From Escherichia phage PGN6866, in sequence record MT127620: DNA of 64,000 nucleotides; one strand, 5' to 3'. Shown piece after piece: positions 6,562 through 10,849 of this stretch. The first letter of the stretch is position 1; every line of letters begins with the position of its first letter. Below the pieces are notes generated by a model. That model was not told the DNA's origin and searched no databases. It saw only the letters and a list, made by a program, of their open reading frames with translations. The position numbers and the translations under genes were made by a program.

Positions 6562-6753
6562 CTACATTGCAACCATCTTTCTAACTTTCTTGTTACTGAA
6601 TTTAGCGCCGGTAAACTTACTCGTCTTATCTTTCGGGTTTAGCTTGCTATCGGTGAACAACTCGACCACTTCACAAGCAATCAGGGCAAGCAAAGGAAGC
6701 ACTACAGCCATGACCATCATAATCAGGACAACCATTTCTATTACTCCAACCAC
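6562..6753 (-). CDS. small membrane protein
   Basis: 63 aa; strongly hydrophobic N-terminus, basic C-terminus. Confidence 0.4.
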   Translation of the reverse strand: MVGVIEMVVLIMMVMAVVLPLLALIACEVVELFTDSKLNPKDKTSKFTGAKFSNKKVRKMVAM

Positions 6754-7418
6754 TCAATCGATAGCTTCAATTTACTACTACTTAATAAGGAAAGCAAGTG
6801 CCACGGGTAAACTATTTCTACTATCTATATAGGACGGGGAACACACAACCGCAGAACAGACCACGGGGAAACATAGCAAGATAGTGCGGTAGTAATATAC
6901 CACTTAAATAATTAGTTAACTATTAATAGCATTACTCAAACATCAAAGACCATTCGCTACGCTCATGTACGCTGAAAAAAGAAGTAATAAAAGAAACAAT
7001 AAACATCAAACATAATCTTTCCACTTAATTAATACATACATCATTATTGCACTCATAATCATTACTATTGAAACTATTATCAACGTAACTATGGGGGAAT
7101 GGGGTAGTAACTAGGGGGTATTATTAGCTTATTCATAGTGCCTTAATCTAATCATTATACAGTGCTAGCCTTTCTCTCACTCTTTAAAGGGGAACTAAAT
7201 AAACGGGTAGGTAATGTATTGGGTAGTATACACGGGGAAAGAATAACGGGGAGTAGGCACGGGGAAAGGTGGAACGTTGAAAGGGAAGGTAAAGGCATTG
7301 CCAATAACCCTTTTTTAAATGAGGACTCCCCCTTTTTAGGAAACACGCGGGAAGCGGCTAGCCCCATTCGGTCAAATCAGAATTTTAAACTCTTATATAT
7401 AAGGTTGAAAGAGAACTT

Positions 7419-7586
7419 ATGTGGAAAATTAAGTTAATCATTAAGCAATTCAAATGTGATCATGAGTACTATCGGATACGCAAAGCTTACGGGGATGAAA
7501 GAGTTCACACCCTTTATAAGTCCACTTGGAGATGTAGTAAATGTGGCAAGCTTAAACACAGCACATGGATGGACAGACCTTAACGT
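7419..7586 (+). CDS. small zinc-ribbon-like protein (55 aa)
   Basis: ATG at 7419; MWKIKLIIKQFKCDHEYY...WRCSKCGK; weak Shine-Dalgarno; below track cut-off. Confidence 0.3.
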
Positions 7587-7625
7587 GACATGGCCTTAAC
7601 ATGAGGGTGCCTTAACATGAAGTCC
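7578..7625. repeat. three direct repeats CCTTAAC(A/G)TGA at 16-bp spacing, followed by CCTTTA-type repeats to about 7730
   Basis: CCTTAACGTGACATGG / CCTTAACATGAGGGTG / CCTTAACATGAAGTCC read directly. Confidence 0.7.
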
Positions 7626-7736
7626 CCTTTATGACATGCCCTTTACTTCAGCGTACACGGGTTGTTGGTATGAAGTGGCCTTTACGGGTAGGTCTTATGA
7701 TGTGCCCTTTATACTCTTATTCAGAGGAGAAGAATT

Positions 7737-7991
7737 ATGGATTTAGTATTAGACTTTTTATCAGAGATGGTGCCTCGGTTCAGAACAGAGACATACGCTT
7801 TCGTAATCAACAGTGACTCTGAAGAAGGGATGGAAGCTACATGCTTAGGTCGTCTTGTTGATTTAGATGATGAAACAGATTTCGATATTACAATTGATGT
7901 AAGTAGTTTTGGTTGGCTCTTCTTCAGAGCATTCCGCACTTACAGAAAAGAAACATACAAAGATTACAGCAAGGGAGATACAAATGAATAA
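7737..7991 (+). CDS. hypothetical acidic protein
   Basis: Shine-Dalgarno GAGGAG upstream; first gene of rightward block. Confidence 0.45.
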   Translation: MDLVLDFLSEMVPRFRTETYAFVINSDSEEGMEATCLGRLVDLDDETDFDITIDVSSFGWLFFRAFRTYRKETYKDYSKGDTNE

Positions 7992-8616
7992 TCCAATAAC
8001 CGCAGTGAATATGGAAGGTGTTTATGGAGGTAGTTTCCCTTCTGGTTCTCCTTTCCACACTAAAGCGATGGACCTTAACGATTACAATTCACAGCTATGT
8101 CGCTCTGGTTGCAGCTTACAGCATTTAGAAACTATGGGAAATGTTTCAGGCTTAGCTGTACAAGATTTATATAGTGGAAGTATTCTTAAACCAAATATTA
8201 CGGAGAACAAAAATATGTTAGATTTGATTCATACTACTCGTCCTAATTCTAAAACTAAAACACAACCATCTACTCTGGAAGTAGTTGAATATGAATCTAC
8301 TAAACACGATCACCTCCCTGACTATGCTCGTGCAATGATTGAGATGATTGAAGAAGCTGAATATGAAATGCTCCATGATTACATTACCTCCAAAGATGAA
8401 TGGCATCGTGATGTTCGAATCGAAGAGGATGGTACAGAAACAATTACGTGGATTCACAAGAGTGAGCTAGTAGACGACGCACTGCGAGACTACGAAAAAT
8501 TTTTGGTCGACGGCTCTATTCTTTTAGAGGAAGAGAAGGGTGCAGAACTTCCGTGGGAAGGTGAGACGATTGCTCTTGGTAAGATGTTTAACCTGTCCGT
8601 TGGTGATTGTAAGTAA
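7984..8616 (+). CDS. hypothetical protein
   Basis: ATG at 7984 with AGGGAGA upstream, ATGAATAA overlap with upstream stop; track start 7909 is an extension. Confidence 0.5.
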   Translation: MNNPITAVNMEGVYGGSFPSGSPFHTKAMDLNDYNSQLCRSGCSLQHLETMGNVSGLAVQDLYSGSILKPNITENKNMLDLIHTTRPNSKTKTQPSTLEVVEYESTKHDHLPDYARAMIEMIEEAEYEMLHDYITSKDEWHRDVRIEEDGTETITWIHKSELVDDALRDYEKFLVDGSILLEEEKGAELPWEGETIALGKMFNLSVGDCK

Positions 8617-8650: not shown

Positions 8651-8672
8651 GATAATGTAGAAGGAGTATAAA

Positions 8673-9146
8673 ATGTTTGGAGAAAACGGAGAACTCACGC
8701 CTGCACAGGTAGCTGAGATTACAGGAAGATTACCCGGAGTAACGGAAGAACTTGAAGGCCGTGGTATGAACCCAAGCAATGGGAAGTTTCAAAAGGGAAA
8801 TAAATTCGGACGACCCAGAGGTAGTAGAGGTAAACTGACACAATTAATGTTGGACCGTGTTGCTGCAAGTCATTTGTCTCCTGATGAAGTGTTAATTCAA
8901 ATTTACGAAGATCCTAATATTCCACCTGATCTTAGATTCAAGGCTGCATCAAAAGTTGCAGATCTGGTATATCCTAAGGCGGCCTCTGTTGAAGTTAAGA
9001 TTGAGGAAGAGAATGTAATCAACGAAGAATCATTGAATGCACAAATCAAGGACTTCTTGACTGGAGCACTTGGTATCGACGTTATGCCTCCAGAAGAAGA
9101 CAACTCTGAGGACGCTGAAAAGGGGGAGGAAGCGGACGAGAGTTAA
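8673..9146 (+). CDS. putative terminase small subunit
   Basis: 157-aa basic N-terminus and acidic C-terminus, immediately upstream of large terminase; positional inference. Confidence 0.4.
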   Translation: MFGENGELTPAQVAEITGRLPGVTEELEGRGMNPSNGKFQKGNKFGRPRGSRGKLTQLMLDRVAASHLSPDEVLIQIYEDPNIPPDLRFKAASKVADLVYPKAASVEVKIEEENVINEESLNAQIKDFLTGALGIDVMPPEEDNSEDAEKGEEADES

Positions 9147-9307: not shown

Positions 9308-10849
9308 ATGTCATTAGATAAACAAATTTATGAAGCTCTAACTGGTAACAACCTTAGTGTAGAGGAAAAGAAAGCACTATTGAATATGTTGAAAGAGCGT
9401 GACCAATGGAGGAAGTATAATAAGATTTTGTCTTTCAAGGCGTATGACTTCCAAAAGAAATTTTATGCAGCAGGATTGAAGCATCGCTTTAGATTCTTGT
9501 GTGCAGCGAACCGTGTTGGTAAATCTTATAGCGAGGCATACGAGTTTGCTTGTCATGTCACAGGTCGCTACCCAACTTGGTGGACAGGATATAAATTTAA
9601 AAGACCTATCTTAGCATGGGCAGTTGGTATTACAGGGGATTCCACAAGGAAAGTATTGCAAAAGGAATTGTTTGGTACACCTATCGGAAAGGATACAAAT
9701 TTATTAGGGACAGGTGTCATTCCTCGTGATGCTATCGTCATTGACACGATAGAACGAGATGGTAACAAACTTCAAATCGTACAAATCAAACATCAAAACG
9801 AAAGAGGAGAGTTTGACGGTTTAAGTACATTAGAATTCCGTTCAACCCAACAGGGTGAACACACATTGATGGGTGCAACAGTTGACTACATTTGGTTAGA
9901 CGAAGAAGATCCATACGAGTCTATGGCTATATTCGCACAGTGCGTCACACGTACACTCACAACTAAAGGTCTAGTTACAATTACAGCTACACCAGAGAAC
10001 GGTTTAACTGAACTGGTAGATAAATTTATGAAAGGTGAAGGGGATGAGAACACAGGTTCTCTGTATTTCCAGAATGCTTCTTGGTGGGATGCTCATGCAG
10101 ACCTAGGTGGACACATCACTGACCAAGATATAAAAGATATGACTGAAGGTATTCCAGCGTGGCAGTTAGAGATGCGTTCGAAAGGTATGCCATTGTTAGG
10201 AAGTGGTTTGATTTATGATGTATCGGATGACACAATTAAATGTGAACCATTCGAAATTCCTGATACGTGGAAACGTGTCTGTGCAATTGATATTGGTATT
10301 GATCACCCAACTGCTGCTGTTTGGACAGCTTACGATGCAAACACGGATACTATCTATGTTTACGACTCATATAAAGAAGGTGGCTTTACTCCAGTGTATC
10401 ATGCTCCAGCTATTAATGGTCGTGGTCAGTGGATTCCTGTCATCCTGCCGCACGATGCGGACAATATTGAGAAAGGTAGTGGCTCATCTGTTGCTCAATT
10501 CTATAAGAATGCAGGAGTTAACGTACAGAGTGAGACCTTCTACAACAAAATTGGAATGGATGGTAAAAAGAACTTCTTTGTAGAACCCGGAATCACAGAT
10601 ATCCGAGAAAGAATGATGAGTGGACGCTTTAAAATCTTTAACACAGCCGCTAATGCTAAGCTATTCGAAGAGAAAGCTAGATATCACCGTAAGGTTGGTA
10701 AGATTATTAAAGAACATGATGACTTAATGGATGCGATGCGCTATTCAGCGTGCTCTGTTACACATCGTGGTCGCTCTAAACATGACGTTAGCTACGGAAG
10801 TGCTTCTCTGTATGAGGCAAACGTAAGCAGATGGAATCAGAGTTACTAA
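9308..10849 (+). CDS. terminase large subunit
   Basis: 513 aa; Walker-A-like NRVGKS, Walker-B-like DYIWLDEED, nuclease-type acidic residues; precedes portal. Confidence 0.8.
   Translation: MSLDKQIYEALTGNNLSVEEKKALLNMLKERDQWRKYNKILSFKAYDFQKKFYAAGLKHRFRFLCAANRVGKSYSEAYEFACHVTGRYPTWWTGYKFKRPILAWAVGITGDSTRKVLQKELFGTPIGKDTNLLGTGVIPRDAIVIDTIERDGNKLQIVQIKHQNERGEFDGLSTLEFRSTQQGEHTLMGATVDYIWLDEEDPYESMAIFAQCVTRTLTTKGLVTITATPENGLTELVDKFMKGEGDENTGSLYFQNASWWDAHADLGGHITDQDIKDMTEGIPAWQLEMRSKGMPLLGSGLIYDVSDDTIKCEPFEIPDTWKRVCAIDIGIDHPTAAVWTAYDANTDTIYVYDSYKEGGFTPVYHAPAINGRGQWIPVILPHDADNIEKGSGSSVAQFYKNAGVNVQSETFYNKIGMDGKKNFFVEPGITDIRERMMSGRFKIFNTAANAKLFEEKARYHRKVGKIIKEHDDLMDAMRYSACSVTHRGRSKHDVSYGSASLYEANVSRWNQSY

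What the first reader, a model, noticed from the sequence alone, without database searches (positions are those of the whole stretch)
7578..7730. Direct-repeat array CCTTAAC(A/G)TGA at 16-bp spacing in the divergent control region
Three 11-bp direct repeats are spaced exactly 16 bp apart, followed by four CCTTTA-type repeats, all within 160 bp upstream of the first rightward gene and about 1.6 kb upstream of the terminase genes. The wider region 6760..7736 also has CACGGGGAAAG twice. Regularly phased repeats like this fit iterons, a packaging recognition site or a multi-site regulator operator.
Basis: seen in the sequence. Interest (0 to 1): 0.5.

Follow-up and report, generated by a model that had tools for sequence, protein, structure and literature searches.

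The report
Conserved repeat array beside phage genome end
A real and strongly non-random cluster of seven short same-strand DNA repeats lies about 220 bp inside the left terminal repeat of a phiEco32-like coliphage genome and is conserved across that phage subfamily, so it is most likely a docking array for a DNA-binding protein, but its binder and function remain unproven.

Summary
Seven same-strand CCTTWA hexamers start at 7578, 7594, 7610, 7626, 7640, 7679 and 7706. That is 7 of the 40 plus-strand copies in 64 kb, and no other 160-bp window holds more than 2.

The window is a circularly permuted phiEco32-like (Kuravirus) genome. The "divergent control region" is really the genome-end junction. 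The 193-bp direct terminal repeat (DTR) is 7167-7359, and the array starts 219 bp inside the left end. It lies between a 54-aa zinc-ribbon-like ORF (gene 1) and the gp4 homologue.

The true unit is bipartite: RTGR-N4-S-CCTTWA, spaced 14 or 16 bp. All 15 sampled Gordonclarkvirinae and one metagenomic relative carry 4-7 copies, with variable spacers. The full unit is essentially confined to this locus.

It is not a gp36 or sigma-70 promoter cluster, not a structured RNA and not conserved coding sequence.

gp6 is a small terminase by profile. However, relatives with near-identical TerS lack the array, and one relative has the array without gene 1 or gp4.

Best reading, at low-to-moderate confidence: an accessory protein-binding array acting at the left genome end, comparable to the T7 SRL. 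The main rival is a regulator of the gp4/gp5 leader.

The parts
7569..7583 (+). Unit 1 (ATGGACAGACCTTAA). It overlaps the last five codons and the TAA stop of gene 1. It departs from the S at -1.
   Evidence: the first-copy position is conserved in relatives
7585..7599 (+). Unit 2 (GTGACATGGCCTTAA). This is the most conserved unit across relatives (RTGACATGGCCTTWA).
7601..7615 (+). Unit 3 (ATGAGGGTGCCTTAA)
7617..7631 (+). Unit 4 (ATGAAGTCCCCTTTA)
7631..7645 (+). Unit 5 (ATGACATGCCCTTTA). It shares one base with unit 4, which gives the 14-bp spacing.
7646..7663 (+). Conserved non-repeat element CTTCAGCGTACACGGGTT between units 5 and 6. It contains one ACGGGT motif.
   Evidence: present in Kuravirus and Suseptimavirus members; absent in LAMP; replaced or disrupted by inserted sequence in phiEco32 and Bas89
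7670..7684 (+). Unit 6 (ATGAAGTGGCCTTTA)
7697..7711 (+). Unit 7 (ATGATGTGCCCTTTA). Its CCTTTA starts 31 nt upstream of the gp4 ATG, just before the GAGGAG ribosome-binding site.
7419..7583 (+). Gene 1: a 54-aa CxH...CxxC zinc-ribbon-like ORF (phrog_7696), immediately upstream of the array.
7737..7991 (+). gp4 homologue (84 aa, phrog_12698), the gene immediately downstream of the array.
7167..7359 (.). 193-bp direct terminal repeat, present as a single collapsed copy. The left physical end of the genome is at 7167 and unique left-end DNA starts at 7360.
   Evidence: alignment to phiEco32 positions 1-193 and its right end; the 193-bp TR is reported in PMC4281155 and PMC9965538
8673..9146 (+). 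gp6, a probable small terminase (TerS), directly upstream of TerL (9308-10849) and preceded by the late promoter element TAATGTAGA at 8653-8661.

Best explanation
**What it is.** The array is a single-locus cis-acting cluster of seven head-to-tail 15-bp bipartite sites (RTGR-N4-S-CCTTWA, spaced 14 or 16 bp). It lies in unique DNA 219 bp inside the left direct terminal repeat of a phiEco32-like genome.

**How it most likely works.** It most likely loads several copies of one sequence-specific DNA-binding protein, phage- or host-encoded and not identified here. That protein would act on the left genome end during concatemer processing or packaging.
- The left end is inferred to be the end packaged first, and it carries the TerS and TerL genes.
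- The array would be an accessory, lineage-specific element, comparable in position and architecture to the T7 SRL array or to lambda cosB accessory sites.
- It is not the core cutting signal. That is better assigned to the GCT|AGCC motif at both DTR boundaries and to the deeply conserved DTR-end and post-DTR elements.

**Shown here.**
- Existence, clustering, strand uniformity, the bipartite unit, conservation, and restriction to one locus.
- Position relative to the DTR.
- Exclusion of promoter, structured-RNA and peptide-coding readings.

**Inferred only.**
- That a protein binds the array.
- That the role is in end maturation or packaging.
- That the left end is packaged first.
For: **Clustering.** 7 of 40 hexamers lie in 135 bp, all on one strand. 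The full unit occurs 6 times here and twice elsewhere in 64 kb.

**Independent flank signal.** In 76 distinct units from 15 phages, positions outside the hexamer used for ascertainment are informative:
- T at -8 in 69 of 76 units.
- G at -7 in 71 of 76 units.
- S at -1 in 74 of 76 units.
- The four positions in between are nearly uninformative.
- RTG and CCTT are about one helical turn apart.

**Conservation.** Kuravirus and Suseptimavirus members and the metagenomic locus L027 all carry the array, although flanks are only 65-70% identical. Spacers vary and copy number changes by whole units, from 4 to 7.

**Nucleotide-level constraint.** The position that would read as a proline codon is CCT in 44 of 50 cases. 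It is followed only by TTA or TAA, with no synonymous variants.

**Location.**
- The DTR is 7167-7359 by alignment to phiEco32, whose ends were determined experimentally (PMC4281155, PMC9965538).
- TerS and TerL lie 1-1.6 kb downstream.
- The SU10 S2 table places its predicted early sigma-70 promoters at 73.5-76.7 kb of the 77.3-kb genome, that is, near the right end. This underlies the inference that the right end enters first and the left end is packaged first.

**Precedent.** T7 carries about 12 same-strand CCTAAAG-type heptamers, mostly 13 bp apart, at 175-332, just inside its 160-bp terminal repeat. This was verified in the T7 sequence.
Against: - The array is absent from relatives L028, L029, L030, L024 and L025. 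These keep the same TerS family (50-75% identity, with near-identical basic and helical segments), TerL, portal, the DTR-end motif and the post-DTR palindrome. TerS therefore does not covary with the array.
- Distance from the DTR varies. Insertions of roughly 60-170 bp separate gene 1 from the array or split the array in ECBP2, Bas89, HC-25922 and phiEco32.
- A 14-16 bp spacing is not helically phased.
- Unlike the T7 heptamers, CCTTWA is not repeated inside the DTR beyond two inverted copies, and it is not arrayed at the right end. The ACGGGK family fills that role instead.
- The function of the T7 SRL is itself unproven (my knowledge of Dunn and Studier 1983; I could not retrieve the paper).
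- The array always ends 22-55 nt before the next gene's ATG. That fits a leader-region regulatory role equally well.
Confidence: 0.35

Rival explanations
1. Leader-region regulator. The array is a set of binding sites for a dedicated factor that controls expression of the downstream left-end genes (gp4/gp5). The sites could act on DNA, as a transcription roadblock or operator, or on the mRNA. Cooperative binding would spread to the ribosome-binding site, or would block read-through from the putative left-end sigma-70 promoter.
For: - The array is always in the orientation of transcription.
- It always lies between the conserved promoter-like post-DTR element and the next gene, and it ends 22-55 nt upstream of that gene's ATG. 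This holds even in L027, where the next gene is gp5-like and both gene 1 and gp4 are absent.
- The motif is confined to one locus, as expected for a dedicated regulator.
- The SU10 authors predict a sigma-70 promoter upstream of CDS1.
Against: - No promoter was detected in or just after the array, so a classical operator is unlikely.
- There is no structured RNA: z-score -0.74 and no Rfam hit.
- No candidate regulator covaries. Gene 1 and gp4 are absent from L027, and gp5 is present in lineages that lack the array.
- gp4 has a strong ribosome-binding site of its own.
Confidence: 0.25
2. No selected function. The array arose as slippage-derived tandem copies of the 3' end of gene 1 (…RTG-GAY-AGR-CCT-TAA). 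Alternatively, it is a set of module-junction sequences between which small accessory ORFs are inserted and lost.
For: - Unit 1 is the in-frame C-terminus of gene 1.
- Copy number changes by whole units.
- Small ORFs sit between units in phiEco32, Bas89, HC-25922 and ECBP2.
- The array is restricted to some lineages.
Against: - CCTTWA and RTG are invariant in 76 distinct units, while the spacers and flanking genes have diverged to 65-70% identity.
- The array persists in L027 without gene 1.
- In Bas89 and LAMP gene 1 ends with CCG-TAA or CCG-GGA-TGA, so protein conservation and motif conservation are separable.
Confidence: 0.15
3. Iteron-type origin of replication at the left genome end.
For: It is a single-locus array of direct repeats, and it is near a genome end. 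From my own knowledge, T7 has secondary origins associated with phiOL and phiOR; those two promoters are annotated near the T7 ends.
Against: - Units are 15 bp at 14-16 bp spacing, not 17-22 bp in helical phase.
- GC content across the array is 0.43-0.46, with no adjacent AT-rich unwinding element. The AT-rich stretch (about 6900-7100) lies across the DTR.
- Neighbouring proteins show no Rep or initiator domain.
- The array is absent from relatives that share the same genome architecture.
Confidence: 0.07
4. Ribosome-level device. The units would act on the mRNA as a relay of minigenes without Shine-Dalgarno sequences: RTG-X-X-CCU-UAA, or RTG-X-X-CCU-UUA-UGA with an AUGA start/stop overlap. 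Alternatively, they would act as repeats complementary to 16S rRNA, like the T7 gene 10 'epsilon' element UUAACUUUA.
For: - 68 of 76 units begin with a start codon exactly three codons before CCT.
- The two spacing classes match the two junction types: 16 nt for TAA-N-RTG and 14 nt for the TTATGA overlap.
- In 7 of 15 phages an unbroken chain of adjacent small ORFs runs from the gene 1 stop to the gp4 ATG.
- The resemblance to epsilon comes from memory only.
Against: - There is no synonymous variation at the Pro/Leu/stop positions.
- In-frame stops in the N6 are not depleted: 4 observed against 5.4 expected.
- 37 of the 64 units that have a start codon and no in-frame stop in the N6 read through.
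- The chain is broken in Paul, the SU7 lineage, LAMP and others.
- No ribosome-binding sites precede the units.
Confidence: 0.07
5. A cluster of promoters, either for the phage sigma factor gp36 or for host sigma-70.
For: In phiEco32 and SU7 some unit junctions read CCTTAATGTGA/G, which partly resembles the gp36 consensus tAATGTAtA.
Against: - In this window the junctions read TAACATGA or TAACGTGA.
- No match to TAATGTATA with up to 1 mismatch falls in the array.
- The mapped phiEco32 gp36 promoters lie upstream of genes 6, 13, 26, 40, 58 and 68 (PMC8948821). The first corresponds to window 8653.
- No sigma-70-like site lies in 7400-7960.
Confidence: 0.03

Closest known systems
T7 SRL/SRR short-repeat arrays next to the terminal repetition
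   Same: - Both are coliphage podovirus genomes with short direct terminal repeats (160 bp in T7, 193 bp here).
- Both have an array of 7-12 same-strand short repeats with a CCT-plus-A/T-rich core (CCTAAAG in T7, CCTTWA here).
- Spacing is regular in both (13 bp in T7, 14-16 bp here).
- Both arrays lie in unique DNA just inside the left repeat.
- Function is unproven in both.
   Different: - There is no sequence homology.
- The T7 array begins 15 bp after the terminal repeat. This one begins 219 bp after it, behind a small gene.
- The T7 heptamer also occurs inside the terminal repeat and at the right end (SRR). CCTTWA does not; the ACGGGK motif behaves that way here.
- The unit here is bipartite, with a second conserved RTG half-site.
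Terminase small-subunit recognition arrays: lambda cosB R-sites, P1 pac hexamers, SPP1 pacL/pacR boxes
   Same: Several short repeats within about 150 bp, near the genome end or cut site and near the terminase genes, and unique in the genome.
   Different: - Presence of the array does not covary with TerS among relatives.
- The array is separated from the cut site by about 220 bp and a gene.
- It tolerates large insertions.
- TerS binding was not tested.
Iteron arrays of plasmid and phage replication origins, and centromere-like repeat arrays (for example omega heptads, parC)
   Same: Head-to-tail direct repeats with a conserved core and variable spacers, confined to one locus.
   Different: - Unit length and phasing differ.
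- There is no adjacent initiator or partition gene and no AT-rich unwinding element.
- The phage is lytic and has a T7-like end structure.

Membership tests
T7-type terminal-repeat-adjacent short-repeat array (SRL/SRR) | Linear genome with short direct terminal repeats | tested here: met
   Window 7167-7359 aligns to phiEco32 positions 1-193 and to its right-end copy. The 193-bp TR was determined experimentally according to PMC4281155 and PMC9965538.
T7-type terminal-repeat-adjacent short-repeat array (SRL/SRR) | Many same-strand short repeats at regular spacing in unique DNA immediately adjacent to the repeat | tested here: inconclusive
   There are seven same-strand units at 14-16 bp spacing. 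However, the array starts 219 bp from the DTR end, behind gene 1. In T7 it starts 15 bp after the TR.
T7-type terminal-repeat-adjacent short-repeat array (SRL/SRR) | The same motif also occurs inside the terminal repeat and is arrayed at the other genome end | tested here: not met
   Only two inverted CCTTWA copies lie in the DTR (7185, 7290), and one lone copy lies at 7141. The ACGGGK family meets this feature instead.
TerS recognition array (cosB/pac type) | A small terminase gene is encoded nearby | tested here: met
   A profile of the gp6 family hits PDB small terminases 7joq (E=0.0026) and 6w7t (E=0.034). DUF5681 is matched by 36 of 42 members. The gene lies immediately upstream of TerL in the window and in 5 of the 7 metagenomic loci examined; in L025 two small ORFs intervene and in L026 a spike gene and a DUF1353 gene intervene. 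The structure search was inconclusive.
TerS recognition array (cosB/pac type) | The site and TerS covary or co-occur among relatives | tested here: not met
   L028, L029 and L030 (TerS 65-75% identical, with conserved DNA-proximal segments) and L024 and L025 lack the array. L027 has it.
TerS recognition array (cosB/pac type) | TerS binds the repeats specifically | not testable with these tools
   This needs EMSA or footprinting with purified gp6.
Iteron-type replication origin | Iterons of about 17-22 bp in helical phase, with an adjacent AT-rich unwinding element and an initiator gene | tested here: not met
   Units are 15 bp at 14/16-bp spacing. GC content is 0.43-0.46 across the array. Neighbouring ORFs have no Rep-like domains.
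gp36 (phiEco32 sigma) promoters | The single element tAATGTAtA, 6-8 nt upstream of the transcription start | tested here: not met
   No match with up to 1 mismatch lies in 7560-7740. The nearest real site is at 8653, upstream of gp6. The consensus is taken from PMC8948821.
Structured regulatory RNA | Stable or conserved secondary structure, or a match to a known family | tested here: not met
   MFE z-score is -0.74. No Rfam match was found.
Protein-coding sequence or functional mini-ORFs | Conserved reading frame, synonymous variation, and depletion of in-frame stops | tested here: not met
   Distal-unit spacings of 37, 38 and 39 nt break the frame between phages. No synonymous variants are seen. 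In-frame stops are not depleted.

The most novel reading that the evidence does not exclude
The repeats act on the mRNA and the ribosome rather than on DNA. They would form a relay of tiny units without Shine-Dalgarno sequences, RTG-N6-CCU-UAA or CCU-UUA-UGA, in which each stop touches the next start and each unit ends in a slow-terminating Pro-stop context. Alternatively, they would form an array of 16S-rRNA-complementary, epsilon-like elements. Either would pass or trap ribosomes between gene 1 and gp4, giving a phage-encoded multi-minigene device. My evidence weakens this reading but does not exclude an RNA-level version. The constraint is at the nucleotide level and is strictly strand-specific, and the 14/16-nt spacing classes match the two stop/start junction types.
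Probability: 0.07. Interest if true: 0.75.

Novelty: new member of a known kind. Interest (0 to 1): 0.4.

Why it matters
phiEco32-like phages are a model for phage-encoded sigma factors and are used as therapeutic coliphages, but their cis-acting DNA signals are unmapped: how the short terminal repeats are recognised, cut and duplicated, and which end is packaged first. This work supplies:
- a conserved, single-locus repeat array just inside the left end;
- a shared GCT|AGCC motif at both repeat boundaries;
- a conserved palindrome just after the repeat;
- an identified TerS gene.

Together these give concrete, testable candidates for those signals. If the array proves to be an accessory packaging or end-organising site, it would also give an experimental handle on the long-unexplained T7 SRL/SRR arrays. 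If it instead regulates the gp4/gp5 leader, it defines a new dedicated regulator and site pair. It also matters for practice. Assemblies of these phages are often permuted with a collapsed DTR, so this region is easily misread as a divergent promoter region.

Tried and rejected
**Promoter readings.**
- gp36 promoters were rejected (against the consensus in PMC8948821).
- Sigma-70 promoters were rejected.

**RNA readings.** Structured RNA was rejected (z = -0.74) and no Rfam family matched.

**Gene 1 zinc-ribbon protein as the cognate binder.** This was weakened.
- Distant homologues in S-CRM01, SA002 and vB_EcoM_APEC have no adjacent arrays.
- L027 has the array without gene 1.
- The word-indexed protein search for gene 1 found only one cluster.

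**gp4 or gp5 as binder.** Neither covaries with the array.

**TerS as binder.**
- gp6 was identified as TerS.
- It shows no covariation with the array.
- The single-sequence AlphaFold model was poor.
- The MSA-based model reached pLDDT 69, and its Foldseek search was non-significant, with PaP3 TerS only at E of about 1.5.

**Mini-ORF or Pro-stop peptide selection.** Rejected at the peptide level.

**Searches for more examples.**
- The IMG/VR scan with gp4 found only phiEco32 and NJ01.
- The IMG/VR pattern scan for four phased CCTTWA returned phiEco32 plus 35 unrelated stretches of tandem repeats with a 15-16-nt period (8 nt in L054), most of them perfect or near-perfect.

**Literature.**
- The primary phiEco32 papers (PMC2587145, PMC3275717) are not held.
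- The accessible papers on SU10, SU7, YF01, Privateer and 7-11 do not mention the array.
- Searches for T7 SRL/SRR literature found nothing usable.

**Resemblances recalled from memory and not pursued.** ArcA TGTTAA repeats, CpxR GTAAA, rrn/lambda boxA, rut sites (the region has G > C) and Type I R-M bipartite sites. Spacing or composition does not fit any of them.

Full report
**1. What the sequence shows**

Reading 6600-8100 confirms the finding.
- CCTTAACGTGA is at 7578 and CCTTAACATGA is at 7594 and 7610, exactly 16 bp apart.
- CCTTTA follows at 7626, 7640, 7679 and 7706.
- All seven CCTTWA hexamers are on the + strand.
- They are 7 of the 40 + strand copies in the 64-kb window. No other 160-bp window has more than 2 on the + strand or 3 on the - strand.
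- My own Poisson estimate is about 2e-7 after correction for all positions and both strands.
- CACGGGGAAAG occurs at 7231 and 7258.

**2. What the region really is**

The window is a phiEco32-like podovirus (Kuravirus, Gordonclarkvirinae). It matches MN03, FS2B and others at 92-96% identity.

Window 7380-7800 maps to positions 214-761 of phiEco32 and to about 214-630 of several other records that start at the physical left end. Comparing phiEco32 1-960 and its right end with the window gives the following layout.
- The 193-bp direct terminal repeat (DTR) is at window 7167-7359, as one collapsed copy.
- DNA to the left of 7167 is the right genome end. From the SU10 S2 table this is where the predicted early sigma-70 promoters lie, pointing leftward.
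- DNA from 7360 onward is the left genome end.
- The T-tract repeats CCCTTTTTTA-N10-CCCCCTTTTTA described inside the SU10 terminal repeat (PMC4281155) are at 7312-7341.

The "divergent control region" is therefore the junction of the two genome ends. The array starts 219 bp inside the left end. It lies between a 54-aa CxH...CxxC ORF (gene 1, 7419-7583, whose TAA stop is inside repeat 1) and the gp4 homologue (7737-7991). It is not upstream of the first rightward gene.

**3. The true repeat unit**

I collected every CCTTWA in the gene 1 to gp4 interval of 15 phages, which gave 92 units and 76 distinct ones. The flanks carry information that was not imposed by the search.
- A or G at -9 in 72 of 76 units.
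- T at -8 in 69 of 76 units.
- G at -7 in 71 of 76 units.
- G or C at -1 in 74 of 76 units.
- Positions -5 to -2 are almost random.

The unit is RTGR-N4-S-CCTTWA (15 bp), with the two conserved parts about one helical turn apart. Unit-to-unit spacing is 14 or 16 bp in 49 of 77 gaps. The 14-bp class arises because the last A of CCTTTA is shared with the next ATG. The full unit occurs 6 times in the array and only twice in the rest of the window, so it is a single-locus motif.

**4. Conservation**

All 15 sampled members have 4-7 same-strand copies at the same place. The sample covers Kuravirus (phiEco32, SU10, Paul, NJ01, LAMP, 101114BS3, PAS59, HC-25922), Suseptimavirus (ECBP2, SU7, EK010) and Bas87, Bas89 and Bas92.
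- Flanking DNA falls to 65-70% identity, yet the cores are intact.
- Spacers differ, and copy number changes by whole units.
- Small ORFs are inserted between units or in front of the array in phiEco32 ("gene 2"), Bas89, HC-25922 and ECBP2.
- A non-repeat element, CTTCAGCGTACAYGGGTT, is conserved between units 5 and 6 in most members.

**5. Readings that are excluded**

*gp36 (phage sigma) promoters.*
- Their consensus is tAATGTAtA and they lie upstream of phiEco32 genes 6, 13, 26, 40, 58 and 68 (PMC8948821).
- In the window the first is TAATGTAGA at 8653, just before gp6, and none lies in the array (SU10 S2 table).

*Sigma-70 promoters.* No sigma-70-like site was found in or near the array.

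*Structured RNA.* The RNA fold is unremarkable (z = -0.74) and no Rfam family matches.

*Coding sequence.* Distal spacings of 37, 38 or 39 nt break any common frame.

*Minigenes.* I examined an attractive alternative: that each unit is a minigene reading fMet-X-X-Pro-stop, or Pro-Leu-stop with an ATGA overlap. This would explain the 16/14 spacing.
- 68 of 76 units do start with a start codon.
- Only 27 of the 64 units with a start codon and no in-frame stop terminate as predicted.
- In-frame stops are not depleted: 4 observed against 5.4 expected.
- The stop-start chain is broken in about half the phages.
- The "proline" position is CCT in 44 of 50 cases and is followed only by TTA or TAA, with no synonymous variants.

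The constraint is on nucleotides, not on a peptide.

**6. Candidate binders and covariation**

*gp6 is a small terminase.*
- A 42-sequence profile hits PDB small terminases 7joq (E = 0.0026) and 6w7t, the PaP3 TerS (E = 0.034).
- 36 of 42 members match DUF5681.
- The gene lies immediately upstream of TerL in the window and in 5 of the 7 distant relatives examined; in L025 and L026 other genes intervene.
- The structure-based search was inconclusive.

*Metagenomic relatives found through TerS allow a co-occurrence test.*
- L027 (TerS 81% identical) has a 5-copy array directly upstream of a gp5-like gene. It has no gene 1 and no gp4.
- L028, L029 and L030 (TerS 75, 69 and 65%) and L024 and L025 (62 and 50%) lack the array. 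Of these, L024, L028, L029 and L030 keep the DTR-end motif AATGAGGACTCCCCCTTTT and the post-DTR element containing the palindrome CTTATATATAAG; in L025 only a looser C/T-rich tract and the ACGGGK repeats are recognisable.
- The TerS alignment shows no residue pattern or N-terminal extension that tracks the array.
- Distant gene 1 homologues in other phages have no neighbouring arrays.

The array therefore does not depend on gene 1 or gp4, and it does not covary with TerS or gp5. It is an accessory, lineage-restricted element. The binder may be encoded elsewhere in the phage or by the host.

**7. Most likely mechanism**

The array has invariant bipartite cores, free spacers, uniform polarity, whole-unit turnover and occurrence at a single locus. 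These are the properties of a multi-site protein-binding array.

Its position points to a role in left-end DNA transactions.
- It is just inside the left DTR and upstream of TerS and TerL.
- That end is inferred to be packaged first, because the predicted early promoters sit at the right end, which should therefore enter the cell first.

The closest precedent is the T7 SRL. I verified in the T7 sequence about 12 same-strand CCTAAAG-type heptamers, mostly 13 bp apart, at 175-332, just after the 160-bp terminal repeat. TerS-binding repeat clusters such as lambda cosB or P1 pac are functional analogues (my knowledge).

I commit to this reading at about 0.35. The failed TerS covariation, the tolerance of insertions and the non-helical spacing count against a core packaging role.

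The main rival (about 0.25) is regulation of the gp4/gp5 leader. The array always ends 22-55 nt before the next start codon and always has the polarity of transcription. Lesser rivals are non-functional slippage or module junctions (0.15), an iteron origin (0.07) and an RNA- or ribosome-level device (0.07).

**8. Comparison with known systems and novelty**

None of the accessible papers on this phage group mentions the array. The two primary phiEco32 papers could not be read.

It is best filed as a new member of the known kind [quoted passage not shown]. It has no sequence homology to T7, and several T7-defining features are not met (see the membership table). Interest is moderate: the array is real, conserved and undescribed, but it is of a familiar kind and its function is unresolved.

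Noticed in passing
window 7164-7170 and 7357-7363: Both DTR boundaries read GCT|AGCC, with the cut position inferred from the phiEco32 ends. GCTAGCC occurs only 3 times on the + strand of the window. In Bas87 (L015) the two boundaries read ggct|agcc (260) and ggct|aggt (509). This is a candidate terminase nick motif.
   Followed up: partly
window 6803, 6834, 6863, 7203, 7232, 7246, 7259, 7489, 7657, 7684: A second motif family, ACGGGK. Ten of the 20 + strand copies in 64 kb lie across the right end, the DTR and the left end, and ACGGGGA is found there in 6 of 6 cases. It is conserved in distant relatives: L025 has 10 copies at 2457-2794, and L027-L030 have ATGGGT/ACGGGT copies. It is therefore more SRL/SRR-like than the CCTTWA array.
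   Followed up: partly
window 7370-7404 (palindrome 7392-7403): A conserved element, GGTCAAATCAGAATTTTAAACTCTTATATATAAGG, lies just after the DTR. It contains a 12-bp perfect palindrome, CTTATATATAAG, that is unique in the window. The element is conserved even in relatives that lack the array (L024, L027-L030). It overlaps the "potential sigma-70 promoter" noted for SU10 (TTGAAA-N15-TATAAG there). It could be a promoter, an operator or an end-processing signal.
   Followed up: partly
window 7212-7220: TAATGTATT, one mismatch from the gp36 promoter consensus, lies inside the DTR and points rightward. The equivalent in phiEco32 and SU10 is TAATGAATA. It may be chance: 19 such matches occur in the window against 19 expected.
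   Followed up: no
window 8673-9146: gp6, annotated "hypothetical protein" in all related records seen, is a small terminase by profile comparison (PDB 7joq and 6w7t; DUF5681).
   Followed up: yes
window 7984-8616: The gp5 homologue is labelled "ABC transporter" in several GenBank records and in PHROGs. It has no Pfam or PDB sequence match here, so the label looks unsupported. Homologues at 28-39% identity occur in L027-L029.
   Followed up: partly
L001 489-629; L016 about 930-1010; L018 527-640; L006 and L016 just after gene 1: Small accessory ORFs are inserted between array units or in front of the array in some relatives: an acidic MTEDEYGSFSEEDYE-type ORF and a hydrophobic MEIIFWLV-type ORF. 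The array region is a hotspot for small-gene insertion.
   Followed up: no
window 7419-7583: Gene 1 (54 aa, CxH...CxxC) is left unannotated in many related GenBank records; the feature column reads 'none' under the tblastn match. Weak homologues exist in Synechococcus phage S-CRM01 and a Salmonella jumbo phage.
   Followed up: partly
L011 (Salmonella phage 7-11) 844-1101 and 910-1000: The long non-coding region upstream of the gp6 homologue in phage 7-11 has its own repeat families: GTGATGTTATA (two exact copies plus variants GTAATGTTATA and GGGATGTTATA; once predicted to be promoters, PMC4331800) and GTRTGGATA x3-4. Repeat arrays ahead of the packaging genes may be general in C3-morphotype phages, with different motifs in each group.
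   Followed up: no
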